From the IMG/VR virus record IMGVR_UViG_3300020048_000014, positions 96,001 through 160,000 of that record: a stretch of DNA of 64,000 bases. One strand, written 5' to 3'. Below, piece by piece: positions 23,118 through 64,000 of the stretch. Below the pieces are notes generated by a model that saw nothing but the letters and a program-made list of their open reading frames with translations, did no database searches and was not told where the DNA came from. Position 1 is the stretch's first letter; the number at the start of each line of letters is the position of its first letter. The translations under genes were made by a program, and so were the position numbers. The DNA comes from a virus.

Positions 23118-23366
23118 TCATGCAAACTTCATAGGTTGTTTTGCGATTGCTATAAATGCTGCGTGTATTGTTACCCACCCATCTGAATCTCTTTCTTGAT
23201 AAGTCACGGCCCCAATATGATTCTGTAAACCGGGACGATCTAGCATATTATCGATTTGGTCATAATAATTTTTTCCAAGTTGCCAAGAATCAAATGTGTC
23301 GAGGGACTCGATATACTCTCTGATGTCTTCGACCGAACCCGCAATCAAATCAAATTTTTGAATCAT
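23118..23366 (-). CDS. Hypothetical protein
   Basis: 82-aa ORF overlapping the end of the GIY-YIG gene. Confidence 0.6.
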   Translation of the reverse strand: MIQKFDLIAGSVEDIREYIESLDTFDSWQLGKNYYDQIDNMLDRPGLQNHIGAVTYQERDSDGWVTIHAAFIAIAKQPMKFA

Positions 23367-33050: not shown

Positions 33051-33219
33051 TGGTGCATTCTTCTAAAAGTTTAATAAAATTGGGTGAGGTGTTCCAGCAA
33101 GCCATTGTAGATAATGACACAATCTCAGCGGAAATAATCTCGGGAAATGTTCTCCTAATCATAGGAATCAAAATCTTGGGCAGTTTATTCTCCATATCTA
33201 TATCTTCATTAATCGTCAT
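33037..33219 (-). CDS. Mini-ORF containing a T4-type major capsid (gp23)-like peptide
   Basis: ILIPMIRRTFPEIISAEIVS resembles the gp23 motif L(I/V)RRxxPxLIAx(D/E)I(V/C)xVQPM. Confidence 0.5.
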   Translation of the reverse strand: MTINEDIDMENKLPKILIPMIRRTFPEIISAEIVSLSTMACWNTSPNFIKLLEECTNDNK

Positions 33220-44886: not shown

Positions 44887-45749
44887 ACCAAAGCCCGCCC
44901 GCTACACCACTATTCGACTCCAGCGTTATAATAAACTTCATCTGTTTCCATATTGCTTATTTTTACGATTTTTGTCTTACCTCTAAAGCCAATCGTTCTG
45001 GTAATTCTAACATTAGGAGAAGCTGTTGGATGTTCTGCCATTTTGGGTTTCATGGTATTTAACACATCTACCATCAATTCTTTTAATTCAGGTTGTTTTA
45101 ACAACCACGACGCAACATAAAAACTCCCCTCATTTACAGAGTAGTTATTACGTTTTAGAATTGACATAGCAGTGTCAGCAAATTGCTTTATTTTGACAAT
45201 AGTCTGTTGATTTGGCTTTATTTTGTTTTGTAAACGGTTTAAAATATTAGATACGTAATCTTTAGTATATGGAGAGGTCGGATATCTATATGCATCATAT
45301 GTAACTTCAGCAGCAATACTGAAAATATCATCCTCGTCAGGTGTACCCGATGAAGTAACAACTTGAATTGTAATTAAAATAGGACTACCACCATATTTTT
45401 CTACAGCTTCTTGAGCTGCGAGTCTTGTTGATCTACCGGCTGTCGAAGCCATATAAACTCCACCTAGAGAAGGCATTGAACCTTTAGAATCCCAACTTTT
45501 TTGTTTAGGGTTAGCATCAAGACCAGTTTTTAAAATTGATCGTAAAAACACAGAAGAGGTACCGTGATACATTAATGTCGTTGGTTGAAGTCTTCTTTCA
45601 AAGAGTGTCTCGACTTTAGAGGAAGTAAAACTTTTGAGAATTTTTTCGACAAGTAAATCAAATTTCATATTGTTATTTATAATAAATAAATTATTGAAAG
45701 AATCCAACTGTTGTTTGAAGGTTAATAACCAAAGCCCGCCCGCTACACC
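44887..45749 (+). repeat. Perfect 22-bp GC-rich direct repeat flanking the ART-like gene
   Basis: accaaagcccgcccgctacacc at 44887-44908 and 45728-45749. Confidence 0.95.
44910..45668 (-). CDS. ADP-ribosyltransferase-fold protein (Tpt1/PARP-like motifs)
   Basis: LMYHGTS...SILKTGL...GGVYMAS...AA...PILITIQV...DED. ATG MKFDLLVE at 45668. Confidence 0.7.
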   Translation of the reverse strand: MKFDLLVEKILKSFTSSKVETLFERRLQPTTLMYHGTSSVFLRSILKTGLDANPKQKSWDSKGSMPSLGGVYMASTAGRSTRLAAQEAVEKYGGSPILITIQVVTSSGTPDEDDIFSIAAEVTYDAYRYPTSPYTKDYVSNILNRLQNKIKPNQQTIVKIKQFADTAMSILKRNNYSVNEGSFYVASWLLKQPELKELMVDVLNTMKPKMAEHPTASPNVRITRTIGFRGKTKIVKISNMETDEVYYNAGVE

Positions 45750-45837
45750 CATTAACTATTTTCGATTATTTGATTATCAATAGGGAATTTGAAAATAATT
45801 TAAAATAATTTCATTTGACAGCTTATTAAGTAATAAT

Positions 45838-51168: not shown

Positions 51169-51975
51169 ATGGTAAAATCAATTAAAATTTTAAACGGATT
51201 TCTCACAGAAATGCCCGGTTTTCATCCCGGTATTCAGTTTGATTTCGAGGCTGATAAAGTAAACTGTTTCTTTGGTCCAAATGCGGCAGGAAAAAGCACT
51301 ATTATGAAAATGATCAAATCTTATTGCGGTATCGAGAAAGGTGGATGGTCTAAAATCAGTTCTGAATTAGCTTTGGGTGCTCAGTGTCAGGCGCACTTTC
51401 CTTGGGTCTATAGAGCCTATTCACCAGCATCTAGTGACTGTGTGGTAGAGTGGGACGGTATTGCATCATTTTATAATGATGGAGATATTAAGATTGATGA
51501 ATGGGCATGGTTTTCCAATAATATTTCATTATCTGAGGATGGGATGACTAGCGAATCTGAACAGTTTCAATATTTGATGGACAAGCCATCATCTGGCCAA
51601 TATCGCATGATAAAGATCAACAAACTTCTCAACATGGCGAAGAATCCACCCGATTTGACAGCGTATGTCTCAGCCCATCCGACACAAAGAGCGGAATCTG
51701 ATTATATCAGAACCTTACCCAGAAATGGTAAACCTACACTTATTTTAGATGAACCAGAACGTGCGTTATCTTTACCAAAGCAAATGGAATTGTTTAAACT
51801 TTTAAACGAATTGACAAGCGAGTATCAAATCATCATTGCAACACATTCACCATTTGTTCTGTTCCAAGAAGACATGAAAATCTTCAATATTGAAGAAGGA
51901 TACTCTGATAAGTGTCTGGATATTTTCAGACAATGTGTGGAAACTAATATAAATAAAGAAAATGAAACATTATAA
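51169..51975 (+). CDS. Stand-alone ABC-type ATPase (AAA_21-like)
   Basis: GPNAAGKST, SSGQ signature, LILDEPE, IATHSP. Confidence 0.88.
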   Translation: MVKSIKILNGFLTEMPGFHPGIQFDFEADKVNCFFGPNAAGKSTIMKMIKSYCGIEKGGWSKISSELALGAQCQAHFPWVYRAYSPASSDCVVEWDGIASFYNDGDIKIDEWAWFSNNISLSEDGMTSESEQFQYLMDKPSSGQYRMIKINKLLNMAKNPPDLTAYVSAHPTQRAESDYIRTLPRNGKPTLILDEPERALSLPKQMELFKLLNELTSEYQIIIATHSPFVLFQEDMKIFNIEEGYSDKCLDIFRQCVETNINKENETL

Positions 51976-53104: not shown

Positions 53105-53132
53105 TTGACTTCCGAATTAAATATGCTAAATT
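53105..53132 (+). promoter_or_regulatory. Sigma70-type promoter heading the kinase-glycosyltransferase operon
   Basis: TTGACT-16 bp-(TGc)TAAATT, 6 nt before ATG 53139. Confidence 0.6.
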
Positions 53133-53138
53133 ATTGAC

Positions 53139-53870
53139 ATGCGAGCGTCAATATCGGGCTGTACAAACAGTGGGAAATCAACATTGGTTCAGTCTTTTCT
53201 TCAAAAATGGCCAATGTATCAAACACCCTCTAAAACATATCGTGATGTGATCCTAGAATCAGGTTTAGGCCATAGCACCAATACATCTGCTGAAACTCAA
53301 CTTCTCATTTTAGACTGGATGATGAAAGAACAAGAGAAATTTGGTCCGAAGAGTAATGTGATGTATGACCGTTGCCCACTAGACAATCTAGTATACACTC
53401 TCTATGCTAACTCAAAAGAATTAATTTCTGATGAAGTATGTGCAGCAACTATCTCTTTGGTCAGAGAGTCTCTAAAAGATTTAGATATTATTTTCATGCT
53501 CCGATATGAACCCGGAATTAAAATTGTGAATGACGGTATGCGAGATACTGATTTGGATTTTATTAAAGAAACCGATCAAATTTTTGGAGACTTATATCAT
53601 CAGTATTGTGAAAATCTTGAATCGGATATTTTCTTTCCTGCTGAAGATTGCCCTGCCATTATTCAAGTTGATGGTAAAACTATTGATGATCGGCTATGGT
53701 TCATTGGTGAATTTATCGATTATAAGGGTAACTTAATCGAGACTACCGATAGCATATTAGACCCAACTAATGTTGATCTTCTTGAGAAGATGCTGGGAGA
53801 GCAACAAATCGAACTAGGTAAAGATGCTCAAATCAAAACATTAATGAATCAAATTAAAAAAGGACGATGA
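53139..53870 (+). CDS. P-loop kinase (dNMP/NadR-AAA_28-like)
   Basis: ISGCTNSGKST, YDRCPLDNLVY. Confidence 0.8.
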   Translation: MRASISGCTNSGKSTLVQSFLQKWPMYQTPSKTYRDVILESGLGHSTNTSAETQLLILDWMMKEQEKFGPKSNVMYDRCPLDNLVYTLYANSKELISDEVCAATISLVRESLKDLDIIFMLRYEPGIKIVNDGMRDTDLDFIKETDQIFGDLYHQYCENLESDIFFPAEDCPAIIQVDGKTIDDRLWFIGEFIDYKGNLIETTDSILDPTNVDLLEKMLGEQQIELGKDAQIKTLMNQIKKGR

Positions 53871-54670
53871 GAGAGAAAATAGGAATAGGAATTGTTACTT
53901 GCCGACGACCGGAAATGTTGACAAAATTACTTGAATCTATCAAGTATCGGAATGACTGTGAATTGGTCATTATTAATGATGGGGAACCTCTAGAAGTAGA
54001 GGGTTATAATTTCTATGTTAGAAACAATATTGAAAATCTTGGAGTTGCAAAATCTAAAAACTTAGCTTTAAAACATCTTTCAAATAAAAATTGTGAGCAT
54101 ATATTCTTAATAGAAGACGACATGTTAATCAAGGATGATACTATCTTTGAAAGATATATCAAAGCATCAAAAGCTACTGGTATTCAACATCTAATGTTTG
54201 GATATCATGGTCCAGCTAATAAGAACGGTATTTCCAAAGGAAAGCCATGCCCAAGACTTATTGTCAATTATTCTGATGATGTATCAATTGCATTGAACCA
54301 GCATTGTGTTGGGGCATTCTGCTATTATTCCAGAAAGTCTTTAGAGGAGTGTGGATTGATTGATGAAAAATTCAAGAACGCATTTGATCACGTATCCCAT
54401 AGTTACGAATTAGCTCTCAAAGGTTTCTCTACTCCTTACTGGTGGTGGGCAGATTTAACTAATTCGTGTGATTACATTGAAGAACAAGCATGTTCTGAAG
54501 AATCATCAACTATAAAAACACCTGAGAAGATGTTGCAGTGGAGGACCAATATTGAAGAGTCTATGAAATATTTTAAAGAAAAGTTTGGGTATATGCCATT
54601 TGGTAACGATAGAGTTCCTGATAAATCAGAACAGGAAGTTAGCAGCTTCTTAAAATTTATAAAACCATGA
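53867..54670 (+). CDS. Glycosyltransferase family 2
   Basis: IGIVTCRRP, IINDG, GVAKSKN, FLIEDD. Confidence 0.88.
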   Translation: MREKIGIGIVTCRRPEMLTKLLESIKYRNDCELVIINDGEPLEVEGYNFYVRNNIENLGVAKSKNLALKHLSNKNCEHIFLIEDDMLIKDDTIFERYIKASKATGIQHLMFGYHGPANKNGISKGKPCPRLIVNYSDDVSIALNQHCVGAFCYYSRKSLEECGLIDEKFKNAFDHVSHSYELALKGFSTPYWWWADLTNSCDYIEEQACSEESSTIKTPEKMLQWRTNIEESMKYFKEKFGYMPFGNDRVPDKSEQEVSSFLKFIKP

Positions 54671-55323
54671 AAATTTTAATAAAATTCCCTACCAGAGATC
54701 GGCCAGAAAAATTTTTAAATACTTTAAATAGGTATTATGAAATGTCAGCGAACATTGATAATTTAAATTTTTTAATATCGTGTGATATAGACGATGATAC
54801 TATGAATAATAGTAGAATGTTAGATATACTCAAATCATATAAAAATTTAACAGTAGATTTTAGATCGAATAAGAATAAAATAGAAGCTGTCAATTCAGGT
54901 ATATCCGAGTATACCTCATCATACGATATAATTTTATTAGCTTCTGATGATATGATTCCCGTAGAAGTTGGGTATGATAATATTATTATAAAAGTTATGG
55001 AGAGGTATTTTCCCGATGGTGATGGCGTTTTATGGTTTAACGACGGTTTACAGGGAATGAAATTAAATACCTTATGTATTTTGGGAAAAAAATACTATGA
55101 CAGGTTCGGATATATATATTATCCCGAATATAAGTCACTTTACTGTGATAACGAATTCACAGAGGTTTCTAAAAATTTAGATAAGGTGGTTTATTGTGAT
55201 AAAGTGCTTATAATGCATAATCATCCGGGACATGTCAATTTATTTGATGACCTATATAGGAAAAATGATTCATATGCTAATGAGGATATGTTATTGTGGA
55301 TTACACGTTCAAAATTGATATGA
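54667..55323 (+). CDS. Glycosyltransferase (GT-A fold)
   Basis: FPTRDRP, SCDIDD, LLASDDM, YCDNE. Confidence 0.8.
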   Translation: MKILIKFPTRDRPEKFLNTLNRYYEMSANIDNLNFLISCDIDDDTMNNSRMLDILKSYKNLTVDFRSNKNKIEAVNSGISEYTSSYDIILLASDDMIPVEVGYDNIIIKVMERYFPDGDGVLWFNDGLQGMKLNTLCILGKKYYDRFGYIYYPEYKSLYCDNEFTEVSKNLDKVVYCDKVLIMHNHPGHVNLFDDLYRKNDSYANEDMLLWITRSKLI

Positions 55324-55973
55324 TAATATATACACACTACAGCGAATCACATTTTGATATGTTTAAGGAATACTTTCTCAAATCACTGAGAGTCCTTTAC
55401 ACCAAGGAGGAACTACCACTAAGAGTAGTGTATCATACTCAAACAACAGAGAATGGTGAGTTTATGAGCAACGGGTGGCTTGAGGCAATGGATATTAAAT
55501 TAGATGTAATATTACAGGCTATAGAAGAAAATTATGGAAAATCATTTATATTTTCTGATTCCGATATTCAATTTTTTCAGCCATTCGTGAGCGATATTGT
55601 AGAAAAATTAAAATCTAATGACATTGCTTGTCAAGAAGATCGCGGAACATTATGTGCTGGATTTTTCGGATGTAATGCCAATCAAAATACTAAAAATTTA
55701 TTTGAGACAATTAAAAAAACATTTAAATCGATGGTCAACGATCAAGTATGTTTAAATTATTATAAAAATTTAGTGACTTATACGTTACTTAATAGAGATC
55801 AATTTTATACTATAGGAAATTCATTTGATAATTCAGATGGAACCAATGTCTGGGATAATATAACTGATATTATCCCACCTAAAAGTATATTGATACATCA
55901 CGCGAACTATGTAATCGGTAGAGAAAATAAATTGAAACTTTTAAAGATGATTAAGGATAATTATGGTAATTGA
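55320..55973 (+). CDS. Nucleotide-diphospho-sugar transferase (PF03407-like)
   Basis: FIFSDSDI, LCAGFF, VNDQVCLN, HHANY. Confidence 0.8.
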   Translation: MIIYTHYSESHFDMFKEYFLKSLRVLYTKEELPLRVVYHTQTTENGEFMSNGWLEAMDIKLDVILQAIEENYGKSFIFSDSDIQFFQPFVSDIVEKLKSNDIACQEDRGTLCAGFFGCNANQNTKNLFETIKKTFKSMVNDQVCLNYYKNLVTYTLLNRDQFYTIGNSFDNSDGTNVWDNITDIIPPKSILIHHANYVIGRENKLKLLKMIKDNYGN

Positions 55974-56826
55974 TTTTTTTAAAGATATATTCCAATACGA
56001 AAAATTCCCTGTAGAATATCGTTGCTTTCAACAGCTAGAGAATGTCAGTGACATAAACTATGTCGCTATTCCATGGACCCAGATATTGAATAGTGGATGG
56101 TTAAACTTTCCGGGTAGGCGCAATAGGAATGAGTATCTGAAAGAATTGGCATCCTATAAAATAAATCAATATAATAATTTCACTGTATGTCAGCACGATG
56201 ATTATATGCAATTAATAGAATTTTATAGGCATTTACATATCACAACAGTATTTTCTCCATTACATAATAGATACAATAATATTGAAGGTATTGATATTAT
56301 TCCTATATCATTTACAAATAGCTTCACATTTGAAGAGAAGATTAAAGATATAGATTTTTCATTTGTTGGTGCCTATGTTACTCATCCTATACGTAGATAT
56401 ATGAAAGAGTATATAAATGGGGACAATATAATTTATAGAAACGATTATCATGTAGGAGGAGATATCTCTATAAGTAAACCAATAGAAGAATCTGAGTATA
56501 AAAATATTTTAGAGCGAAGCAAGTTTTCAATTTGTCCAAGGGGGTCATCTCCATCATCTGTCAGATTTTGGGAAAGTATAGCTGCCGGGGCGATACCTAT
56601 ACTAGTTTCAGATGATTGGGTGCTACCTGAGTGGGATTGGGATAATACCATTTTAAAAATTTCAGAGGATCAATTTACGAGTTATGGTTATGATGATATT
56701 TCACATCTCGTAGATCGGGTGTTGAATGATTGTGATAGATATAATAGATTGCAAACCAACTGCAAACTCGCCGCTAATAAATTCAAATCCGACAATTTCA
56801 AGGATTATATATTAAAAAATTTATGA
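55963..56826 (+). CDS. Exostosin-family glycosyltransferase (GT47-like)
   Basis: YKNILERSKFSICPRG...SVRFWESIAAGAIPILVSDDWVLP. Confidence 0.85.
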   Translation: MVIDFFKDIFQYEKFPVEYRCFQQLENVSDINYVAIPWTQILNSGWLNFPGRRNRNEYLKELASYKINQYNNFTVCQHDDYMQLIEFYRHLHITTVFSPLHNRYNNIEGIDIIPISFTNSFTFEEKIKDIDFSFVGAYVTHPIRRYMKEYINGDNIIYRNDYHVGGDISISKPIEESEYKNILERSKFSICPRGSSPSSVRFWESIAAGAIPILVSDDWVLPEWDWDNTILKISEDQFTSYGYDDISHLVDRVLNDCDRYNRLQTNCKLAANKFKSDNFKDYILKNL

Positions 56827-57560
56827 TATTTGCCCACAACATGCCCGGTATAGGACTGGGTAATAAAATGTTTATTAATGCGTTTTGTTACATTATATCT
56901 TTACAAAAAAGTGAAGAGTTTACTACTATACCAATAGAATATTTTCAAAATACTTTAATCAATACACAATACAGACAGTTAAAAAATCCATTGTATACTA
57001 GTTCATTTGGATATCAATATGTCGATATGGAAAAGGTTTTAAACCACTCCGGGGATATTGTTGTGGATTCATACGTTCAAAGATATCAATATTATGATAA
57101 TTATCGGGATGATTTGAAAAGATTTTATGTAGAATCTCAAATACCCTCCACAGGATCTATTGACACTACTCTACATATACGAAATGGTGATTATAAGACC
57201 CTCGATTGGTATCTTGGTTTGGATTCATATTATAAAATATTATCAGAAATAAATTTTAATAGTTTGGACATAGTGGCAAATCATATAGATGATGATGTCA
57301 TGAAATTAAGTGATAAATACAATGCAAATGTATATAATTCAAGCACCATTGAAGATTTTATATTTTTATCAAATTCTAAAAATATAATACTCTCACAATC
57401 AACATATGCATGGTGGGCAGCTTTTTTGGGGAGTCCAGAAAATGTTTATATACCCGTTTCCAGAAAACATATATCTAAAGGTATATGGCTGGATAAGCCG
57501 AGTATTGATGATATTGATTTAGTTGGAGGATTTAAAGAATTTACTAATATTATTTTATGA
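56823..57560 (+). CDS. GT11-like (alpha-1,2-fucosyltransferase-like) glycosyltransferase
   Basis: GLGNKMF, LHIRNGDY, ILSQSTYAWWAAFLG. Confidence 0.8.
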   Translation: MIFAHNMPGIGLGNKMFINAFCYIISLQKSEEFTTIPIEYFQNTLINTQYRQLKNPLYTSSFGYQYVDMEKVLNHSGDIVVDSYVQRYQYYDNYRDDLKRFYVESQIPSTGSIDTTLHIRNGDYKTLDWYLGLDSYYKILSEINFNSLDIVANHIDDDVMKLSDKYNANVYNSSTIEDFIFLSNSKNIILSQSTYAWWAAFLGSPENVYIPVSRKHISKGIWLDKPSIDDIDLVGGFKEFTNIIL

Positions 57561-58114
57561 GAAATTATATAGACATAGGTTGTAATGTTTTGGGTGGTTA
57601 TAATCATCTAACTAGATTAGAAGATTTTTCAAATTTTGAAAAACTGATATTTGTTGAACCGAATCCCGAATGTTGGGAATTTTTGGAAACAAATTTACCC
57701 ATAAAATCTAAATTATTACGAAACGCATTATCAACAAAAGTAGAAGAGGTGGAATTAATAACTAGAGCAGATCAATTAGCTTGCGTAGGTGCTACTATTC
57801 TTGGACAAGAATATTATGATTTTAATCTACATAAGCATAATCTACATGTTGACAAGTATAATAAATATAAAATAACCACCACAACACTGGAGAATATATT
57901 AGTTGAATGTGATATAATACCGGAGCACACTTTATTAAAGATAGATGCCGAGGGTGTAGAATACGATGTATTAGAAGATGTAATCAATAAACAGTTAAGA
58001 TTTGGAAAAATATATTGTGAATTTCATATTCAAAAAAATGTTGACATTGAGAGAAAGGCTGATATCATCAGAAAGATGAATAAATTAGGAACAACCTTAG
58101 TAGAATGGTATTAA
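57557..58114 (+). CDS. FkbM-family SAM methyltransferase
   Basis: YIDIGCN, FVEPNP, LLKIDAEGVEY, IYCEFH. Confidence 0.85.
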   Translation: MRNYIDIGCNVLGGYNHLTRLEDFSNFEKLIFVEPNPECWEFLETNLPIKSKLLRNALSTKVEEVELITRADQLACVGATILGQEYYDFNLHKHNLHVDKYNKYKITTTTLENILVECDIIPEHTLLKIDAEGVEYDVLEDVINKQLRFGKIYCEFHIQKNVDIERKADIIRKMNKLGTTLVEWY

Positions 58115-58117
58115 ATT

Positions 58118-58759
58118 ATGTTAATTGAATTTCAAAATATTAATAAGTATAGTATAACACCTAAAGGTGTAATACATGTGGGGATGCATAAGGCAGAAGA
58201 ATATGAAACGTATATTGCATCCGGTGTATCTTCAATAATCTTCATTGAAGCTAATGAATCTTTATGTAAAGAAGCTGAAACTAAATCAATGGCTGCTTGG
58301 ATAAAACATGCAGCAATTTCCGATAAAAAGGAATTGATTCAATTCAATATCACCAATAATGGTGAAAGTTCATCAATACTTGAACTTGGTGATCATTCTT
58401 ATATATATCCATCAATAGTTAATATTGAAAGTGTTGAGATGATGACATCCACACTAGATGAAATATTTCAGATTGGTGAATATGAGCCTATCGATCTAAT
58501 TGATAGAGTATTTCACCAATTACATCGTTTCAATATACTCAATTTAGATATTCAAGGGGCCGAGTTAAAAGCTATGAAGGGATTATCGGATTGGAGTAAC
58601 ATAGAAGCAATTTTTACCGAGGTAAATTACCGAGAAATGTATAAGGGGTGTCCACTTATAGAAGAAATTGATGAATTCTTATTGGAAAAGAGATTTAAAA
58701 AGGTGGAGGAATCGAATACAGGTGCCGGATGGGGTGATGCCCTATATATTAAAATGTAA
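58118..58759 (+). CDS. FkbM-family SAM methyltransferase
   Basis: VIHVGMH, FIEAN, LNLDIQGAEL, FTEVN, WGDALY. Confidence 0.88.
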   Translation: MLIEFQNINKYSITPKGVIHVGMHKAEEYETYIASGVSSIIFIEANESLCKEAETKSMAAWIKHAAISDKKELIQFNITNNGESSSILELGDHSYIYPSIVNIESVEMMTSTLDEIFQIGEYEPIDLIDRVFHQLHRFNILNLDIQGAELKAMKGLSDWSNIEAIFTEVNYREMYKGCPLIEEIDEFLLEKRFKKVEESNTGAGWGDALYIKM

Positions 58760-58760
58760 T

Positions 58761-59096
58761 ATGTTTGACGCAATAAATTATTTACTACACGAAAAGAATA
58801 AATCCGAATTAGATCCAGATCTTCTTCAGGAATTTAATCCATTCTTCACAGCTAAAGTTTTCTCATATTATGATTCGGGAAAATACTCTGGATATATAAA
58901 CGACACATTAAATCTATACTCGGGGATTTTTAAAACTAAGGAAGAGGAGTTCAAGTTTTTTGATGCTGTTATTCCAAAATTAAAGAGGAGAAAATCGGAG
59001 TATATTAAAAAGCCAGCACCGGGGAAAGTTAAAGAAGAATCCCAACATATACCGGAATTCTTTTCGAGAAGAGAAATTGAATCATATGACAAGTGA
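58761..59096 (+). CDS. gp62: Clamp loader small subunit (T4 gp62-like)
   Basis: MFDAINYLL...FNPFF...SYY...INDTLN...FFDAVIPKLKRRKSEYIKK. Confidence 0.6.
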   Translation: MFDAINYLLHEKNKSELDPDLLQEFNPFFTAKVFSYYDSGKYSGYINDTLNLYSGIFKTKEEEFKFFDAVIPKLKRRKSEYIKKPAPGKVKEESQHIPEFFSRREIESYDK

Positions 59097-59370
59097 CGAA
59101 ATAAAGATAAAAAGATTAGCTATTCAAAAAGAGGAACATTCAGAAAGAAATAAAATTCTTGACCCCCATTATACCAAATATCACAAGATGGAGAAAGATT
59201 TGGAAGCTGAATGCGAATTGATTGGACATTTTTTTCAAAAGGCTTACTATAATTGGGGGAGTTTTGATGAAAGACAATTCACACATGAAACATTCAACTG
59301 TAAATATTGTAGAAAAAGAATACATGTTCATTATTCAGAAGTTGACAACGTAAATAATCATCTTAAATAG
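59086..59370 (+). CDS. Hypothetical protein with CxxC
   Basis: ECELIGH...CKYC. Confidence 0.6.
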   Translation: MTSDEIKIKRLAIQKEEHSERNKILDPHYTKYHKMEKDLEAECELIGHFFQKAYYNWGSFDERQFTHETFNCKYCRKRIHVHYSEVDNVNNHLK

Positions 59371-59374
59371 TCAT

Positions 59375-59806
59375 ATGTCTAATTATACACACCTAGAACA
59401 AGCCCCGATCTCAATTGACTTTGCACCAGTCCAGAAGTCCCATATCGATCTTTCTGATCGCAATCTACCGACAGATTTTGGACTCGATGATTATATCTTT
59501 TCTCAGTTGTTAGACGATATCATCCTAATTGAGTATGCTGACATGGTGATGGATGAGGTCGCAGGTGATTATATTATGCGTGGTGGGATCGCAATTCCGG
59601 TGAATCAGATTCATAATGCTTGGAGGAAGGGTAAAATTATCATCACTGGTCCACAAGTTCGATGGGTTAAAAAAGGTGATATTGTAGTATTTCCAAATAA
59701 CATGGGAATCCCGATTACGAATCTGGAAGTTGAAGACCATGGCAAAATTAAGAATGGATTGTTTTTGAACGAACAACGACTCTTCGGTGTTTGTAAGGTT
59801 AAATGA
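59375..59806 (+). CDS. GroES-like co-chaperonin (T4 gp31 analogue)
   Basis: LLDDIILIE...GGIAIP...GKIIITGPQVRWVKKGDIVVF. Confidence 0.8.
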   Translation: MSNYTHLEQAPISIDFAPVQKSHIDLSDRNLPTDFGLDDYIFSQLLDDIILIEYADMVMDEVAGDYIMRGGIAIPVNQIHNAWRKGKIIITGPQVRWVKKGDIVVFPNNMGIPITNLEVEDHGKIKNGLFLNEQRLFGVCKVK

Positions 59807-59807
59807 T

Positions 59808-60347
59808 ATGAAAGTTTTCCACATGATTCCTTGGAATACCGATAAAAATATCGGGAGGGCGTACAATGAGATGATGTTCCTAGTGGGCGATAATGATTGG
59901 GTCTGCTTTATAGATGGTGATGCTGTTCACACATCACATTTTTTCGGAAAACGGATTGAGGATGTGATCACATCAAACCCCGAATATTCAATGTTTACAT
60001 GCATGACAAACAGGGTGGGTAGACCATATCAAATACCTGCAAATGTCGATACCAAATCAAATGATCAAAAATATCACAGGGAATTTGGCGATTTATTATG
60101 GGATAAAAATGGGGTTAATGTGTTGAATATAACAGATCGCCCAAACCTAAGTGGTGTTATGATTTTGATAAAAAAAACTATGTGGGAAACCGTAGGAGGA
60201 TTTAAAGAAAAGAAGATGATTACCATAGATGGTGATATGCATCAACGAGTTAAATGCTCTGAGGGCAAGGTTGGTTTGATGCGAGGAATATATGTCCAAC
60301 ATTGGTATAGGGGTGGAAACGCCCAAAACAAAAAACATTTACAATGA
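59808..60347 (+). CDS. Glycosyltransferase (GT-A fold)
   Basis: NIGRAYN, WVCFIDGD, LSGVMILI, GGF, IDGD. Confidence 0.75.
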   Translation: MKVFHMIPWNTDKNIGRAYNEMMFLVGDNDWVCFIDGDAVHTSHFFGKRIEDVITSNPEYSMFTCMTNRVGRPYQIPANVDTKSNDQKYHREFGDLLWDKNGVNVLNITDRPNLSGVMILIKKTMWETVGGFKEKKMITIDGDMHQRVKCSEGKVGLMRGIYVQHWYRGGNAQNKKHLQ

Positions 60348-61181
60348 GTATTGAATTGCTTTATCTCTCATTTTAGTGTCTATTATTTCAGGATAGTCAT
60401 ATCCCAACATTTTACTCGCATTAAAGTTATACAAACATCCATTTAATTTACGCCTTATACATTCTTCGGAAAATATCCTATAGTGATAACATAAGAGTGT
60501 AGCATTTTTAATGCCTACCTCATTAAAATTTTGATAATGTATTGATTTTTTTGTAGACATGTTAAAAGGTTCGTTATTGACACTATCAACACTCACAACG
60601 GTATTAATATTATAGGGGGAGTATGGATTATGAGGACCACAGTTTTTAAATTTAATTGGTTTAAAAACTGATTTACATGGTATCAGTTTCGAATAACATC
60701 TGAATTTATATTGAGATAAATGTTTAGATACATGTGGCAGATCGTGATTCCATCTATATGTAGTGTCCTTCAATAAAGATTGTGGATTGTTCACTCTTCC
60801 ATTTCTAGTCATCATAACCCATGGGATCTTAATCCTATCAACATTTTTATAGGTTGTTTCTAAATGTGTTCGGATAGTTTTTTTATCATTGGAGGTAATA
60901 AATTCGTCAACATCAACATTAATAACCCAGTCAAATGATTTAACCTTATTATATAAATGTTTTAAAATTCCACCATTTAAAGTGACCCTATTTGACGTAA
61001 AGGATTTAACATTTAAGATAGTTATATTATCTAAATATTTACTGTCAATTTTATCATATGTCCCTACATCTGAATTATCGTCATATATATAAATTTTATC
61101 GACCCCTTCATTTATATAATATGCTATAAATTCATGTATAAATGGTTCATTTTTACATCTGGTTATTAATGCTAATGTCAT
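60339..61181 (-). CDS. Glycosyltransferase family 2 (Glyco_tranf_2_4/GT92-like)
   Basis: CKNEPFIHEFIAYY...IYIYDDNSD...WVINVDVDEF...KS...HY. Confidence 0.82.
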   Translation of the reverse strand: MTLALITRCKNEPFIHEFIAYYINEGVDKIYIYDDNSDVGTYDKIDSKYLDNITILNVKSFTSNRVTLNGGILKHLYNKVKSFDWVINVDVDEFITSNDKKTIRTHLETTYKNVDRIKIPWVMMTRNGRVNNPQSLLKDTTYRWNHDLPHVSKHLSQYKFRCYSKLIPCKSVFKPIKFKNCGPHNPYSPYNINTVVSVDSVNNEPFNMSTKKSIHYQNFNEVGIKNATLLCYHYRIFSEECIRRKLNGCLYNFNASKMLGYDYPEIIDTKMRDKAIQYSL

Positions 61182-61326
61182 AATGCTCTTGTTGAATATT
61201 TAACCAATTACTAATAAAATTATTAATCCGGTTGTTATATTCAGTTGTCAGATTTATTAAATAAAAAGAGATCAGTTTTCATTAACGATATATCATTAAA
61301 CAGGAAACAAATTTTGCCAAATAACT

Positions 61327-61902
61327 ATGAAACATTACTATAAAAATATACCGGGGTGGTTTACATTTAAACAGTTCTATTCTAAAATTCTAGAAGATTT
61401 ACCCGATAGCGCACATATAGTGGAAATAGGATCTTGGGAAGGACGTTCTGCTATATATATGGGGGTGGAAATACTAAATTCTGGTAAAAAAATTAAATTT
61501 GACTGTGTGGATAAATGGATTGGGATATTACCTCCAACAGAACATAGAAAAAAAGTTGTTTACCACAAAGATGCACTAAAGTCTCCAAATGGTTCATATA
61601 ATTGTTTTTTAAAAAATATTGAACCCCTTAAAGATGTGATCAATCCTGTCCGATGTTCTTCACTAGATGCTGCACTTTTATACAAAAACGAATCTTTAGA
61701 TTTTGTATTTATCGATGCTGACCATTCATATAAAGAAGTTAAAAAAGATATTCTAGCTTGGATGCCGAAAATAAAAAATGGGGGCATACTTTCAGGGCAT
61801 GATTATCCATTTCCAGACGTTAAACGAGCAGTCGATGAAAATGTTGAAGACGTTATTATACTTAAAGATGAAAAGGTTTGGTATAAAAAAATAATCTGTT
61901 AA
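61327..61902 (+). CDS. Class I SAM methyltransferase (Methyltransf_24-like)
   Basis: VEIGSWEGRS, DFVFIDADHSY, GGILSGHDY. Confidence 0.88.
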   Translation: MKHYYKNIPGWFTFKQFYSKILEDLPDSAHIVEIGSWEGRSAIYMGVEILNSGKKIKFDCVDKWIGILPPTEHRKKVVYHKDALKSPNGSYNCFLKNIEPLKDVINPVRCSSLDAALLYKNESLDFVFIDADHSYKEVKKDILAWMPKIKNGGILSGHDYPFPDVKRAVDENVEDVIILKDEKVWYKKIIC

Positions 61903-62417
61903 TGTTCAACGTAAAAGGCTTCTAAAAATTCAGATATTCTTTTATTATATTCAGTGGTTAAGGCAATACCTTTTTCTAATGTAAAATTATTTCGTTTTTG
62001 TAGAGAAATAGCAATGTCCATACTGTTTCTATAACATACTATAAATTGTGGATTGGGTAAATAATTCAACCATACGTCTATGGTTAGACAGGTTCTAGGA
62101 TCTTTAAATCCCCAACTTTCCATATTTTTAGTCTTAGCAGAATCTATTTCTTTAGATATAATAGATTTAATATTTTCCTCATACCTAGCCCCCACCTCTA
62201 GTATTTTTTCTCTTGGTGGTGGATTATGCCAACTGCCACCAGATTGATGTAATATTTTATCATTCAAACGTATTATATCAACGTTTTCATAATGTCCTTT
62301 TGGATTATCTTTTAACCCCAATAATAATTTATCCCCCATATGGACCTCAGAATTTAAAGATCTTGCGACTAATGAAGTCGCAGCCCTATGCATCCCCAAC
62401 ACTACAATTGTTTTCAT
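61899..62417 (-). CDS. Sulfotransferase-family protein
   Basis: VVLGMHRAATS (LGMHRSGTS-type), NPKGHYE, WGFKDPR, VCYRN...A.SL.KR. Confidence 0.8.
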   Translation of the reverse strand: MKTIVVLGMHRAATSLVARSLNSEVHMGDKLLLGLKDNPKGHYENVDIIRLNDKILHQSGGSWHNPPPREKILEVGARYEENIKSIISKEIDSAKTKNMESWGFKDPRTCLTIDVWLNYLPNPQFIVCYRNSMDIAISLQKRNNFTLEKGIALTTEYNKRISEFLEAFYVEH

Positions 62418-63162
62418 TTATATACTTATGTAAAAGTTTTTTATAATCAACATTCCACTTTGGTTGTAGGATAATATCTCCGATTGGAATTTTTCCATCG
62501 TCTTTTAACTTATCTATATGTCTTTTATGTCTGATTAAGATATTTTCTTTATTAGTCGAATCACAACCTCGCCCAGACATATGGTAACTTCGACCGCCCC
62601 ACAAATACATCCAAGATACTTCATCATCTGAGGGGTCTGCATTAATCACTTTACATTTATAATCTTTTTTAATTTTAATTACGAATGACATATCATACCC
62701 AGCATTTTCCAATTCATGTTTTCCCGATCTCTCCCATATTTCTTTAGTATATACGATACCAGAGTTTCCAACACTGTGTAGAGCATCTATCTTCCCATGA
62801 TTTACTGTGGCACCATTTTTCCAATGTAGTAAGTCATATCCCGGAAAATATTTATTGATATTTTCTAGGTGATTTGTTAAAGCTATGTCATCATCATCCC
62901 ATACTGCTATCGTATTATATTTACAATTAGTCACCGCAAAATTTTCCTTTTCTCCGATAGTGTTAAAAGTTTTATCTAAATTTATGATTCTCACATTTGG
63001 GTGGTCAAAATATAATCGTTGTTCGGGGTAGTCGTTCACAATTACCATTTCTTTATCACCATCGTAATCTTGATTCAAAAAGCTATATATTGATTCCTCT
63101 AATAAATCCACCCTACCATAAGTGATACACTTACAAGAAATAGGAAGCTTTTTGATATTCAT
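62386..63162 (-). CDS. Glycosyltransferase family 2
   Basis: CITYGR...FLNQDY...IVND...IGEKEN...AVWDDDD. ATG MNIK at 63162. Confidence 0.85.
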   Translation of the reverse strand: MNIKKLPISCKCITYGRVDLLEESIYSFLNQDYDGDKEMVIVNDYPEQRLYFDHPNVRIINLDKTFNTIGEKENFAVTNCKYNTIAVWDDDDIALTNHLENINKYFPGYDLLHWKNGATVNHGKIDALHSVGNSGIVYTKEIWERSGKHELENAGYDMSFVIKIKKDYKCKVINADPSDDEVSWMYLWGGRSYHMSGRGCDSTNKENILIRHKRHIDKLKDDGKIPIGDIILQPKWNVDYKKLLHKYINENNCSVGDA

Positions 63163-63213
63163 ATGCAATTTATTTATGAAAAGTTCAGAGGATGTCAAAT
63201 ATTAAATAACTAA

Positions 63214-63759
63214 ATGGCTAAAGCATCTGGGAAGGCTCGATACGAAAAAATATGGCGAGATGCTAAAGGAAATCTCCGAGATGCTTGGGGACGTTTCTTA
63301 AAAAGTTGGCAGGAGATTGAAGGATATAAAGAAGAAGAAAACTATCAATCTAAAATTGAACAATCCGATAGACAGATACAAAGAGGAGAGTTAAAAAATC
63401 TACTTACACAGAATGTCTGCGAGATTGTGTTTGTTCGTAGAAGACCCGAGAGAGCACCCGGAAGACCCGAAGTTAGAAGAATGCTATGCACATTGTGTAG
63501 AAACATCCAAGTATCTGAAAGAGGAAAACGATCTCTTTCTTTTGAAGAACCAAAGACAAGTAGGAGGTTGGACGAAGTAAAACACAACATCGTAGTGGTT
63601 TGGGACATAATACAATGCAAATATCGAAACGTGAGTATGGATACATGCTATTTGAGACAGACCATACCCGGAGATGAAACTTTTTGGAAATATTATGATA
63701 AAGTTTTTTCTCCGATGTCTCCACAACAAAGACAACATTGGATAGATTCAATGACTTGA
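63214..63759 (+). CDS. Hypothetical protein with WYL_2/DUF2693-like SH3 barrel
   Basis: VCEIVF...RRMLCTL...VVWDI...YRNV, with TAAATA 5 nt upstream. Confidence 0.5.
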   Translation: MAKASGKARYEKIWRDAKGNLRDAWGRFLKSWQEIEGYKEEENYQSKIEQSDRQIQRGELKNLLTQNVCEIVFVRRRPERAPGRPEVRRMLCTLCRNIQVSERGKRSLSFEEPKTSRRLDEVKHNIVVVWDIIQCKYRNVSMDTCYLRQTIPGDETFWKYYDKVFSPMSPQQRQHWIDSMT

Positions 63760-63789
63760 TTAATTTTATATATCATATAAATAATTTTC

Positions 63790-64000
63790 ATGATAAAACT
63801 TGAGGAGCAGTTGAAAAATATCATTTTAAAAAATGTAGATTTTCAAATTGATGGTAAATCTATTAAACGGGGCAAAATTAAAGTCTATAATAGTAAACAG
63901 TTTTTTATTAGATTTAAGATTGAGAGTGACAATAAAACAATTGAGTATGATTTACCGTATCCATTTAAAATTGTGAAAAATTCTACTGGATATGTTTTCG
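63790..64000 (+). CDS. Hypothetical protein (3' truncated by window)
   Basis: ATG 6 nt after TATAAATA (63776-63783), open to the window end. Confidence 0.65.
   Translation, partial: MIKLEEQLKNIILKNVDFQIDGKSIKRGKIKVYNSKQFFIRFKIESDNKTIEYDLPYPFKIVKNSTGYVF

What the first reader, a model, noticed from the sequence alone, without database searches (positions are those of the whole stretch)
53105..59370. Kinase + 5 GTs + 2 FkbM methyltransferases + clamp-loader subunit in one tightly coupled operon
Seen: genes joined by ATGA or short overlaps behind a sigma70-like promoter, starting with a nucleotide-kinase-like gene and running into gp62, which is separated from gp45 by about 39 kb (gp44 not seen). 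Established: dNMP kinases accompany modified-nucleotide pathways, and exostosin, GT11 and PF03407 families build branched glycans. Inference: an early, replication-linked glycan assembly line. The substrate could be DNA bases (multi-sugar hypermodification) or a host-surface polysaccharide rather than the virion.
Basis: partly seen in the sequence, partly recalled or inferred. Interest (0 to 1): 0.8.

Follow-up and report, generated by a model that had tools for sequence, protein, structure and literature searches.

The report
Swappable sugar-gene cassette in early phage operon
An uncultured freshwater T4-like phage, like its relatives, keeps a swappable block of soluble sugar-adding and methylating enzyme genes inside an early operon that also carries a DNA-replication gene. 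The block probably builds a strain-variable glycan on the phage's own proteins or the host envelope, not on DNA.

Summary
Window 53139-60347 is an unbroken co-directional array of 13 genes (five ATGA overlaps, no gap over 4 nt). It runs: nucleoside/nucleotide-kinase fold, five glycosyltransferases (GT2, PHROG GT, PF03407, GT47, GT11), two FkbM methyltransferases, a real but very divergent gp62, a small ORF, a GroES-like gene and another GT.

The promoter TTGACW-N16-TAAATT-N6/7-ATG is conserved before the kinase in 10 relatives, and the DNA polymerase gene has the same promoter type. That points to early, near-leaderless transcription.

Comparison with 29 related contigs changes the picture. 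Kinase, GT2a, gp62, GroES-like and helicase form a conserved backbone. The stretch 54671-58756 is a cassette replaced exactly at gene boundaries, and a second cassette lies at 59815-63202. Relatives carry 3-12 other glycan genes in the same slot. None of 140 cassette proteins has two or more membrane segments.

The 197-kb genome has no thymidylate-synthase-type hydroxylase and no TET/JBP enzyme, so DNA glycosylation is unlikely. GT2a resembles gp234 of mycobacteriophage Myrna, whose virions are glycosylated. The target is still unproven.

GT islands in T4-like aquatic phages are already described, and this scan has met variable phage glycan cassettes on other DNA. Moderate interest.

The parts
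53105..53132 (+). Early sigma70-type promoter: -35 TTGACT (53105-53110), 16-nt spacer with TGn, -10 TAAATT (53127-53132). The ATG lies 6 nt downstream, so the mRNA is near-leaderless.
   Evidence: TTGACW-N16-TAAATT-N6/7-ATG is conserved in 10 relatives whose intergenic sequence otherwise differs. The same promoter type precedes the DNA polymerase and helicase genes.
53139..53870 (+). Nucleoside/nucleotide-kinase-fold P-loop protein. Conserved backbone gene; substrate unknown.
   Evidence: AAA_28 at 8.7e-9; dNK 1e-5 (below cut-off); phrog_2107 at 6e-15. AF2 model pLDDT 81. Foldseek hits: deoxyadenosine kinase, NadR ribosylnicotinamide kinase, thymidylate kinase, dCK (E 3e-6 to 1e-4). Relatives are 38-82% identical and always sit at the head of the locus.
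53867..54670 (+). GT2a: conserved GT-A glycosyltransferase, the candidate entry enzyme.
   Evidence: PF00535 at 27.4 bits (cut-off 23.3); phrog_2456 at 7e-23. Present in 16 of 18 relatives with at least 7 kb of upstream sequence. 31% identical to Myrna gp234, E 3e-22. DNA similarity to relative L007 ends exactly at its stop codon, 54670.
54667..55323 (+). Cassette 1, gene 1: glycosyltransferase (PHROG family only).
   Evidence: phrog_14945 at 2e-21. No significant Pfam match (only Phyto_Pns9_10, E 0.004, 16.8 bits against a cut-off of 27).
55320..55973 (+). Cassette 1, gene 2: nucleotide-diphospho-sugar transferase (PF03407).
   Evidence: PF03407 at 9.8e-10. The ATGA-coupled start is at 55320. 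Homologues of 53-54% identity in distant relatives L048 and L049.
55963..56826 (+). Cassette 1, gene 3: exostosin-type GT47 glycosyltransferase.
   Evidence: PF03016 at 4e-14. Matches human exostosin-1 chains at 1.7e-4. 50-53% identity in L048 and L049.
56823..57560 (+). Cassette 1, gene 4: GT11 (alpha-1,2-fucosyltransferase family).
   Evidence: PF01531 at 7.7e-9.
57557..58114 (+). Cassette 1, gene 5: FkbM-family methyltransferase.
   Evidence: PF05050 at 8.5e-10; TIGR01444 at 3e-12.
58118..58759 (+). Cassette 1, gene 6: FkbM-family methyltransferase. Semi-conserved at the right end of the slot.
   Evidence: PF05050 at 1e-11. 56-68% identical copies in 10 relatives.
58761..59096 (+). Divergent gp62, the clamp-loader small (A) subunit. 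111 aa; conserved backbone gene with no promoter of its own.
   Evidence: No direct Pfam or PHROG hit. Family profile against cyanophage gp62: E 1.6e-4. AF2 model: T4 gp62 chains are the top hits, Z 6.7, rmsd 2.3 A over 67 residues, next unrelated chain Z 2.3. A profile search gave 195 relatives; PF16790 is the only recurrent Pfam family among 105 of them. Extended family against gp62 family: hhalign 97% probability, E 7e-11.
59086..59370 (+). Small ORF (94 aa) of unknown function, found in close relatives only.
   Evidence: No family hit. 55-68% identity in L007, L009, L010 and L011.
59342..59366 (+). Internal composite promoter before the GroES-like gene: TTGACA (59342-59347), 13-nt spacer, TAAATA (59361-59366), then 5 nt to the ATG.
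   Evidence: TTGACA/TAAATA-N5-7-ATG is conserved in about 12 relatives, with the -35 box inside the last codons of the upstream gene.
59375..59806 (+). GroES-like co-chaperonin (T4 gp31 analogue). Conserved backbone gene.
   Evidence: phrog_3188 at 2.5e-5. 47-87% identical; follows gp62 in the relatives, directly or after the small ORF, with one or two inserted genes in a few.
59808..60347 (+). Cassette 2, gene 1: glycosyltransferase. Last gene of the co-directional array.
   Evidence: phrog_14179 at 9e-29. The ATG lies 1 nt after the GroES-like stop codon.
60339..61181 (-). Cassette 2: GT2_4/GT92-type glycosyltransferase.
   Evidence: PF13704 at 6e-14; PF01697 at 1.7e-9.
61327..61902 (+). Cassette 2: Methyltransf_24 (class I, O-methyltransferase-like).
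   Evidence: PF13578 at 3.7e-18.
61899..62417 (-). Cassette 2: sulfotransferase.
   Evidence: PF13469 at 1e-6. 77% identical copy at the same site in L027.
62386..63198 (-). Cassette 2: GT2 glycosyltransferase.
   Evidence: PF00535 at 4e-7. 72-84% identical in L018 and L027. DNA similarity to L007 resumes at 63203.

Best explanation
The locus is a dedicated variable-glycan slot inside an early operon of a freshwater T4-like phage clade.

Shown:
- A conserved host-type promoter drives a translationally coupled array.
- Backbone genes (nucleoside/nucleotide-kinase-fold protein, entry glycosyltransferase GT2a, clamp-loader subunit gp62, GroES-like co-chaperonin) bracket a cassette of glycosyltransferases and methyltransferases.
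- That cassette is exchanged between relatives exactly at gene boundaries, in the way O-antigen loci are exchanged between conserved flanks.
- All the enzymes are soluble.

Inferred:
- gp62 and the kinase are linked to the sugar genes by transcription only, not by a shared function. gp62 depends on read-through across the cassette, which means the cassette is expressed early.
- The enzymes build a branched, O-methylated oligosaccharide in the cytoplasm. It may also be fucosylated and sulfated.
- GT2a starts the chain on a conserved acceptor and the cassette enzymes elaborate it into a strain-specific structure.
- The most likely acceptor is the phage's own proteins, that is, the virion, as in mycobacteriophages and chloroviruses.
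For: Architecture:
- 13 co-directional genes with five ATGA overlaps.
- No terminator excess.

Early promoter:
- Conserved in 10 relatives.
- The same promoter type precedes the DNA polymerase and helicase genes.
- gp62 has no conserved upstream element and abuts whichever gene ends the cassette.

Backbone versus cassette:
- 29 related loci share PhoH | kinase | GT2a | variable block | gp62 | GroES-like | two unknowns | helicase | gp3.
- blastn similarity to L007 stops at 54670, resumes at 58757, stops at 59814 and resumes at 63203.
- Distant relatives (kinase 38% identical) share GT77 and GT47 at 50-54%, whereas close relatives (kinase 81%) lack them.
- Cassette 1 has lower GC: 30.2% against 34.5-35.5% in the flanks.

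Glycan function of the slot:
- 140 cassette ORFs from 18 relatives include GT2 (28), GT11 (14), epimerase/dehydratase (12), FkbM (11), RmlD-like (11), Methyltransf_24 (9), GDP-mannose dehydratase (8), GT7C (6), GT10 (5) and DegT (3).
- None of the 140 has two or more membrane-like segments, and none of the window's island proteins has any.

Virion lead:
- GT2a matches 584 cultured-phage records, 550 of them mycobacteriophages.
- Its best-aligned example is Myrna gp234 (E 3e-22). Myrna is one of three phages reported to have glycosylated virions (PMC12363180, citing Freeman 2023).
- Another GT2 closes the tail-fibre gene block at 14589-15410.

gp62 identity.
Against: - No chemistry exists; the acceptor is inferred.
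- Enzymes needed only for virion decoration need not be early, though they can be.
- GT2a is not similar to Che8 gp108-110, which include the transferase that PMC12363180 names as essential for capsid glycosylation.
- I could not read Freeman et al. to check that Myrna gp234 is the responsible enzyme.
- GT2a also has homologues in temperate enterobacterial phages of unknown role.
- Published opinion on similar islands in pelagi- and cyanomyophages favours host O-chain modification (PMC7029224, PMC12801897).
- Deep conservation of the kinase next to GT2a (down to 38% identity) could mean a functional link that I have dismissed.
- Promoter timing is inferred from sequence, not measured.
Confidence: 0.45

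Rival explanations
1. Host-envelope remodelling. The soluble phage transferases act at the inner face of the membrane on the host's own undecaprenyl-linked O-antigen, capsule or S-layer-glycan intermediates. The host flippase and ligase then export the altered glycan, which changes the cell surface early in infection. This would exclude superinfecting phages or stop progeny from sticking to debris. The cassettes vary because the host glycans vary.
For: - Early promoter, as expected for exclusion functions.
- O-antigen-style families (GT2, GT11, GT25, RmlA/RmlD, GDP-mannose dehydratase, DegT) fill the slot.
- O-antigen transferases are normally soluble or peripheral, so the lack of membrane segments is compatible.
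- This is the published reading for GT islands of pelagimyophages and cyanomyophages (PMC7029224, PMC12801897).
- Host hypervariable regions rich in GTs are known in freshwater and marine oligotrophs (PMC12143481).
Against: - No initiating phosphoglycosyltransferase, flippase, polymerase, ligase or Gtr-type membrane protein appears among 140 cassette ORFs or in the window island.
- A conserved entry enzyme (GT2a) across phages with quite different cassettes fits a conserved phage-encoded acceptor better than variable host intermediates.
- Whole nucleotide-sugar pathways in the cassettes suggest a de novo glycan rather than a small edit.
- Replacing a cell's surface glycan within one lytic cycle is slow.
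Confidence: 0.25
2. DNA hypermodification. The kinase phosphorylates a modified dNMP, or a base in DNA, and the transferases build a multi-sugar chain on a hydroxylated pyrimidine to block restriction.
For: - Early, replication-linked transcription.
- A nucleotide-kinase fold at the head of the operon.
- Poly-glycosylated cytosines made by several phage GTs are now known (PMC13326640; bioRxiv 10.1101/2023.12.21.572611).
Against: - No PF00303 thymidylate-synthase homologue in the 196,721-bp, 96%-complete genome. The first look found zero candidates, while the control search rang in 10 of 14 genomes.
- No Tet_JBP.
- The routes described in PMC13326640 and in the 10.1101/2023.12.21.572611 abstract start from one of these two enzyme types.
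- Methyl- and sulfotransferases, fucosyltransferases and GDP-mannose dehydratase are typical of glycoconjugates. None was reported for DNA glycans in the papers read.
- The kinase has only one weak match in cultured phages, Campylobacter phage CJLB-14.
Confidence: 0.06
3. Another cytoplasmic product. The glycan is built on host proteins, on a lipid or on a small molecule, or is released as a free oligosaccharide (for take-over, signalling or a decoy). The kinase would take part by phosphorylating the acceptor or a sugar.
For: - All enzymes are soluble.
- The kinase-GT2a pairing is conserved down to 38% identity.
- P-loop kinases of this fold include enzymes that act on non-nucleotide hydroxyls (general knowledge).
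- The substrate could not be read from the fold.
Against: - I know of no precedent in phages.
- The kinase's best structural matches are all nucleoside or nucleotide kinases.
- In L048 and L049 a small opposite-strand ORF separates the kinase from GT2a, so the two are not always coupled.
Confidence: 0.14

Closest known systems
Glycosyltransferase/'LPS' gene islands in hypervariable regions of T4-like aquatic myoviruses (pelagimyophages, PMC7029224; cyanophages S-SCSM2R, S-SCSM1 and P-SSM2, PMC12801897)
   Same: - T4-like backbone.
- Many GTs (GT2, GT10, GT11, GT25) with nucleotide-sugar epimerases in non-syntenic regions between conserved modules.
- Function untested.
   Different: - The slot here is fixed and always holds glycan genes.
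- It has a conserved entry GT and gene-boundary breakpoints.
- It lies in an early operon that also carries gp62, not in the tail-fibre host-recognition cluster.
- The phage is only about 29% identical to those groups in its DNA polymerase.
Mycobacteriophage virion glycosylation (Che8, Corndog, Myrna; Freeman et al. 2023, read only as summarised in PMC12363180, PMC12619734 and PMC11256854)
   Same: - Phage-encoded soluble GTs with no export machinery.
- GT2a is homologous to Myrna gp234 (E 3e-22).
- 550 mycobacteriophage records carry a relative of GT2a.
   Different: - No glycan has been shown here.
- There is no similarity to Che8 gp108-110.
- The enzyme set is far larger, and it is variable.
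- The host is probably Gram-negative or at least aquatic (unknown).
- Acceptor tails on capsid or tail proteins were not examined.
Bacterial O-antigen/capsule loci (variable serotype genes between conserved flanks)
   Same: - Conserved flanks with a low-GC variable centre exchanged by recombination.
- Same enzyme families, including nucleotide-sugar pathways, fucosyltransferases and FkbM methyltransferases.
   Different: - No Wzx, Wzy, ABC transporter, initiating transferase or ligase.
- The flanks are phage replication and chaperone genes.
T4 clamp loader gp44/gp62 (PDB 3U5Z, 3U61; Pfam PF16790)
   Same: - The 111-aa protein shares the fold of gp62 residues 40-108 (Z 6.7).
- It joins the PF16790 family through intermediate sequences (hhalign 97%).
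- A gp44 partner is encoded in the genome.
   Different: - 111 aa against 187 aa in T4.
- No direct PF16790 hit.
- It lies 61 kb from gp44, whereas the two genes lie within about 1 kb of each other in the two relatives checked.
- gp44 itself trails RmlD-like and RmlA-like sugar genes.

Membership tests
gp62 clamp-loader small subunit (Pfam PF16790 Phage_clamp_A) | Direct match to the PF16790 model | tested here: not met
   No hit for the window protein or for any of 25 close relatives, even at E up to 10.
gp62 clamp-loader small subunit (Pfam PF16790 Phage_clamp_A) | Homology to recognised gp62 proteins through profiles and intermediate sequences | tested here: met
   Close family against cyanophage gp62 family: E 1.6e-4, probability 51%. 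The profile search gave 195 relatives. PF16790 is the only recurrent family among 105 of them (6 members, best 1.3e-6). Extended family against gp62 family: 97.1% probability, E 7e-11 over 107 columns.
gp62 clamp-loader small subunit (Pfam PF16790 Phage_clamp_A) | Fold of T4 gp62 | tested here: met
   AF2 model (pLDDT 71.5). The four best VIA-align rows are T4 gp62 chains (Z 5.7-6.7, rmsd 2.3-2.8 A, 65-68 residues, gp62 residues 40-108). The next chain scores Z 2.3. Only part of gp62 is covered.
gp62 clamp-loader small subunit (Pfam PF16790 Phage_clamp_A) | A gp44 partner in the genome, usually nearby | tested here: inconclusive
   gp44 is present (Gp44_lid, AAA; 35% identical to the HTVC008M protein) but lies 61 kb away. 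No other gp62 candidate was found. Complex formation cannot be tested here.
Phage DNA glycosylation systems (hmC/hoC/hmU routes, TET routes) | An enzyme that creates the hydroxyl acceptor: a thymidylate-synthase homologue or a Tet/JBP dioxygenase | tested here: not met
   PF00303 and PF12851 have no match in the whole 196,721-bp record. About 4% of the genome may be missing.
Phage DNA glycosylation systems (hmC/hoC/hmU routes, TET routes) | Modified base in virion DNA | not testable with these tools
   Needs nucleoside LC-MS or restriction tests on virion DNA.
Virion glycosylation systems of phages (mycobacteriophage type) | Phage-encoded soluble glycosyltransferases related to those of phages with glycosylated virions | tested here: met
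   GT2a against Myrna gp234: E 3e-22, 31% identity over 197 aa. There is no relation to Che8 gp108-110.
Virion glycosylation systems of phages (mycobacteriophage type) | Glycan covalently bound to capsid or tail proteins | not testable with these tools
   Needs glycoproteomics of virions. Acceptor motifs on the structural proteins were not examined.
Seroconversion / O-antigen modification modules (Gtr-type, Wzx/Wzy-dependent) | Membrane components: flippase, bactoprenol transferase, polymerase or ligase | tested here: not met
   None of 140 cassette ORFs and none of the window island proteins has two or more hydrophobic segments (crude Kyte-Doolittle scan). No such family appears in the 25 commonest Pfam families of the census (only 25 of 60 families were shown).
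GT/'LPS' islands of T4-like aquatic myoviruses | T4-like core genome with clusters of GT and nucleotide-sugar genes in non-syntenic regions between core modules | tested here: met
   T4-like core: polymerase, gp32, gp44, gp10, gp3, portal. Variable GT block between conserved genes.

The most novel reading that the evidence does not exclude
A whole clade of T4-like phages maintains an O-antigen-like 'serotype locus' of its own. An early-expressed slot with a conserved entry glycosyltransferase receives interchangeable cassettes, and these give each strain a different methylated, fucosylated or sulfated glycan coat on its virion proteins. Essential replication genes (gp62, and in many members gp44) lie downstream of sugar genes, so they cannot be expressed without transcribing those genes. 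This would be the first self-made, strain-variable glycan coat in T4-like phages, and it would explain the long-puzzling 'LPS genes' of aquatic myoviruses.
Probability: 0.35. Interest if true: 0.7.

Novelty: new variant of a known kind. Interest (0 to 1): 0.45.

Why it matters
Clusters of sugar-transferase genes in large aquatic phages have been noted for 20 years and are usually filed as 'LPS genes' without any test. This locus gives the question a sharper form:

- one fixed slot;
- one conserved entry enzyme (GT2a) to knock out or express;
- exact cassette boundaries;
- a predicted early, near-leaderless promoter;
- DNA excluded as a likely target.

If the glycan sits on the virion, T4-like phages would carry strain-variable sugar coats. 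That would affect adsorption, decay, grazing and antibody or lectin recognition. If it sits on the host, it is an exclusion device in a lytic phage. Either way, the cassette exchange mirrors the glycan hypervariability of the hosts.

The divergent gp62, and the scattering of clamp and clamp-loader genes behind sugar genes, also bear on how T4-like genomes are organised.

Tried and rejected
**Searches that found nothing**
- Megablast of the region against 50,697 phage records: no match.
- tblastn of the gp62 candidate against phages: no match.
- Pairwise BLASTP of it against S-CRM01 and HTVC008M gp62: not significant.
- phmmer of it against PDB: only noise.
- HTVC008M gp62 and gp45 proteins, and Pfam PF02916 and PF09116, against the phage's own genome: nothing. 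gp45 therefore rests only on an Atlas look-alike.
- phmmer of the kinase against PDB: nothing useful. NCBIfam gave no specific names.
- PDB sequence searches with the GT2a profile, GT47 and PF03407 proteins gave only generic or weak matches and no acceptor clue.
- Scan of bacterial and archaeal genomes for close GT47 relatives, as a host clue: none.
- Rfam and tRNA scans of the region: nothing.
- TATAAATA is not enriched in the window, and terminator-like sites are not enriched in the region.

**Ideas dropped**
- An apparent early promoter before the RmlD-like gene lies inside a conserved 69-aa ORF, so its conservation may come from coding constraint. I do not claim it.
- I considered the kinase as an APS kinase feeding the sulfotransferases. 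I dropped this because the kinase is universal in the clade, the sulfotransferases are sporadic, and the fold matches are nucleoside/nucleotide kinases.

**Tools and papers not available**
- Freeman et al. 2023 is not held.

Full report
**Context.** The window is bases 96001-160000 of a 196,721-bp IMG/VR virus record rated 96% complete. It is a distant T4-like myovirus.
- Its DNA polymerase (33209-35767, minus strand) is only about 29% identical to those of cyanophages, pelagiphages and Caulobacter phage Cr30.
- It encodes gp32, gp44, a gp10-like baseplate protein, a tail-sheath stabiliser and a portal.
- No cultured phage record resembles the region at DNA level.
- Earlier notes of this scan call the phage freshwater. 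I did not verify the habitat.

**Observation.**
- Kinase-like protein, 53139-53870: AAA_28 scores 36.2 bits against a cut-off of 27; dNK falls just below its cut-off; phrog_2107 'thymidylate kinase' gives 6e-15.
- Five glycosyltransferases: GT2 at 53867-54670; phrog_14945 at 54667-55323; PF03407 at 55320-55973; exostosin/GT47 at 55963-56826; GT11 at 56823-57560.
- Two FkbM methyltransferases: 57557-58114 and 58118-58759.
- Junctions: five ATGA overlaps, two 11-nt overlaps, and gaps of 1-4 nt.
- The co-directional array does not stop at 59370. It runs through a 94-aa ORF, a GroES-like gene (phrog_3188, 2.5e-5) and a further GT to 60347, making 13 genes.
- Four more glycan genes follow on mixed strands up to 63198: GT2_4/GT92, Methyltransf_24, a sulfotransferase and a GT2.
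- Then come two unknown genes, a helicase and the structural module.

**gp62.** The 111-aa protein (ATG at 58761, one base after the FkbM stop codon) has no direct Pfam, PHROG, PDB or phage-database match. Pairwise BLAST against annotated gp62 proteins is not significant. Three indirect lines agree, however.
1. Its family of 38 metagenomic relatives aligns to a cyanophage/pelagiphage gp62 family with E 1.6e-4.
2. An AlphaFold model (pLDDT 71.5) has T4 gp62 chains as its top Foldseek hits. These are the only VIA-align hits above Z 5 (Z 6.7, rmsd 2.3 A, 67 residues, gp62 residues 40-106). The next chain scores Z 2.3.
3. A profile search of 1.8 billion representatives gave 195 relatives. Among 105 of the more distant ones, PF16790 Phage_clamp_A is the only recurrent Pfam family. 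Their alignment matches the gp62 family at 97% probability, E 7e-11.

I take it as a genuine, very divergent and short clamp-loader small subunit. Its partner gp44 lies 61 kb away, just before the window (genome 91799-92719, minus strand). A possible gp45 lies at 19431-20150 (minus strand), but this rests only on a language-model look-alike. The three genes are therefore scattered, and related contigs show the same separation.

**Promoters.** TTGACT-N16-TAAATT at 53105-32 is a modest consensus match, and such matches are hardly enriched here. Comparison rescues it.
- Ten relatives with otherwise divergent intergenic DNA all carry TTGACW, a 16-nt spacer containing TGn, TAAATT (or a near variant), and the ATG 6-7 nt later.
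- The same arrangement, with the start codon 4-11 nt after the -10 box, precedes the DNA polymerase and helicase genes.
- I infer early transcription by the host polymerase and a near-leaderless message. This is sequence inference, not measurement.
- gp62 has no conserved upstream element. In each relative it abuts or overlaps whichever gene ends the cassette, so it must be transcribed through the cassette.
- The GroES-like gene has its own conserved composite promoter: TTGACA, a spacer, TAAATA, 5-7 nt, then ATG. The -35 box lies in the last codons of the upstream gene.
I found that motif also before 63214, 63790 and the gp3-like gene.
- 'One operon' is therefore slightly too simple.

**Backbone and cassette.** In 29 related viral contigs the order is PhoH (minus strand) | kinase | GT2a | variable block | gp62 | (small ORF) | GroES-like | two unknowns | helicase | gp3.
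- GT2a is present in 16 of the 18 loci with at least 7 kb of upstream sequence. The other two end inside long cassettes.
- The variable block holds 3-12 tightly packed genes, and 139 of 140 are on the same strand.
- Against the closest full relative (L007; flanks about 76% identical in DNA), similarity stops at 54670, the GT2a stop codon. It resumes at 58757, four bases before the gp62 ATG. It stops again at 59814 and resumes at 63203.
- The window therefore carries two replaceable cassettes: 54671-58756 and 59815-63202.
- Cassette content is decoupled from the backbone. Relatives with an 81%-identical kinase have none of the window's cassette-1 genes. Two distant phages with a 38%-identical kinase have GT77 and GT47 at 50-54% identity, in the same order and slot.
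- Cassette 1 has lower GC than its flanks: 30.2% against about 35%.

**What the slot makes.** A Pfam census of 140 cassette ORFs from 18 relatives found:

| Family | ORFs |
|---|---|
| GT2 | 28 |
| GT11 | 14 |
| NAD-dependent epimerase/dehydratase | 12 |
| FkbM | 11 |
| RmlD-like | 11 |
| Methyltransf_24 | 9 |
| GDP-mannose 4,6-dehydratase | 8 |
| GT7C | 6 |
| GT10 | 5 |
| DegT aminotransferase | 3 |

- The slot is dedicated to glycan synthesis, including nucleotide-sugar supply.
- By a crude hydropathy scan, none of the 140 proteins has two or more membrane-like segments, and none of the window's island proteins has any.
- No flippase, polymerase, ligase or initiating transferase is encoded. 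The chain must therefore be built in the cytoplasm, either on an existing acceptor or on host lipid-linked intermediates.
- The window's own enzymes suggest a branched, O-methylated, possibly fucosylated and sulfated oligosaccharide. This is inferred from family names only.

**Which acceptor?**
- *DNA.* The DNA-glycosylation routes described in the papers I read begin with a thymidylate-synthase homologue (hmC, hmU, and the 5-hydroxycytosine route of RB69 and DLP3; PMC13326640) or with a methyltransferase plus TET-type dioxygenase (10.1101/2023.12.21.572611). Neither PF00303 nor Tet_JBP matches anywhere in the genome. I rate DNA at about 6%.
- *Virion.* GT2a, the only transferase conserved across the clade, has 584 matches among cultured phages, 550 of them mycobacteriophages. 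It aligns to Myrna gp234 with E 3e-22. Myrna, Che8 and Corndog are the phages reported to glycosylate capsid and tail-tube proteins (PMC12363180, PMC12619734, citing Freeman 2023, which I could not read). GT2a is not related to Che8 gp108-110. A conserved entry enzyme with variable elaborating enzymes fits a conserved phage-encoded acceptor. A further GT2 closes the tail-fibre gene block.
- *Host envelope.* This remains a serious rival and is the published guess for comparable islands (PMC7029224, PMC12801897).
- My split is virion proteins about 45%, host envelope about 25%, other cytoplasmic products about 14%, and DNA about 6%. About 10% is left unassigned.

**The kinase.**
- Its model (pLDDT 81) matches deoxyadenosine kinase, the NadR ribosylnicotinamide-kinase domain, thymidylate kinase and dCK about equally.
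- The Walker A motif and a D-R motif are invariant in relatives.
- It is a backbone gene at the head of the locus, conserved even in distant members.
- I read it as a nucleoside/nucleotide kinase whose link to the sugar genes is positional. A functional link cannot be excluded.

**A second coupling.** gp44 is the last gene of a co-directional array: a 69-aa ORF, an RmlD-like reductase, an RmlA-like sugar-phosphate nucleotidyltransferase (NTP_transferase, 1.7e-52) and then gp44, joined by 4-nt overlaps between the RmlD-like, RmlA-like and gp44 genes.
- Six of 12 related loci have both sugar genes there, one has only the RmlD-like gene, and five have gp44 alone.
- Sugar genes have thus settled upstream of a clamp-loader gene at two sites. 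This looks like accessory genes exploiting early promoters rather than a mechanistic link between replication and glycosylation.

**Comparison and novelty.**
- GT islands in T4-like aquatic myoviruses are described, and this scan has already met variable glycan cassettes in other phages, mostly inside head operons. One note on this same window lists its 17 glycan genes.
- New here: the defined slot with exact breakpoints, the conserved entry enzyme related to Myrna gp234, the conserved early near-leaderless promoter, the dependence of a divergent gp62 on read-through, and the evidence against DNA as the target.
- I class it as a new variant of a known kind, of moderate interest.

**Limits.**
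- There is no expression or chemical data.
- Promoter timing and acceptor are inferred.
- The membrane scan is crude, and only the 25 commonest of 60 Pfam families in the census were visible.
- The host is unknown.

Noticed in passing
window 59342-59375, and the matching sites in L007, L009, L014, L016, L018, L019, L021, L022, L026 and L029: The GroES-like gene has a conserved composite promoter: TTGACA, a spacer of about 13-17 nt, TAAATA, then 5-7 nt to the ATG. Its -35 box lies inside the last codons of the upstream gene, so the conserved C-terminal ...REID... peptide of gp62 may be partly constrained by that box. The -10 box equals the proposed late-gene motif, which suggests expression both early and late.
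   Followed up: partly
genome 91799-94527 (L005 5799-8527, minus strand), just before the window start: A co-directional array of a 69-aa ORF, an RmlD-like reductase, an RmlA-like nucleotidyltransferase (NTP_transferase, 1.7e-52) and gp44, with 4-nt overlaps between the last three. Both sugar genes are present before gp44 in 6 of 12 relatives, one has the RmlD-like gene only, and 5 have neither. They may co-vary with cassette type.
   Followed up: partly
window 19431-20150 (-), beside gp32 at 20596-21528 (-): A probable, highly divergent gp45 sliding clamp. It has no Pfam hit (PF02916 and PF09116 are negative genome-wide) and only phrog_12062 (unknown function), but Atlas look-alike clusters are named 'sliding clamp' (score 0.96). 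Clamp, gp44 and gp62 are at three separate loci.
   Followed up: partly
window 10178-15410 (+) and 389-1204 (-): Two fibre-like proteins with Mtd_N domains are followed by three unknown genes and a GT2 (14589-15410) in one tight block after a gp10-like baseplate gene. A sulfotransferase (PF13469, 9e-14) sits on the opposite strand at 389-1204. These are further glycan genes next to host-recognition genes.
   Followed up: partly
genome-wide; examples at window 35767 (-), 32779 (-), 27936 (-), 16275 (-), 53139 (+), 64158 (+): A class of TTGACW-N15-18-TAnnnT sites lies only 4-11 nt before start codons of replication-type genes, including the DNA polymerase gene.
   Followed up: partly
window 63776-63792 and 63200-63216: Late-type motifs directly before the two conserved unknown genes: TATAAATA-N6-ATG before 63790 and TAAATA-N5-ATG before 63214. 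The 15-nt gap between the divergent genes at 63198 (-) and 63214 (+) leaves no room for separate upstream promoters.
   Followed up: no
window 51169-51975 (+): An AAA_21/AAA_15 ABC-type ATPase (OLD/AbiEii-like signature; PF13304, 2e-13). It is conserved at 84-87% identity in relatives, just upstream of PhoH. Function in the phage is unknown.
   Followed up: no
window 23350-24219 (-) and 44910-45752 (-): A GIY-YIG/NUMOD3 homing-endonuclease-like gene, and a weak PARP-catalytic-domain match (E 2e-4, below cut-off) that could be an Alt/Mod-like ADP-ribosyltransferase.
   Followed up: no
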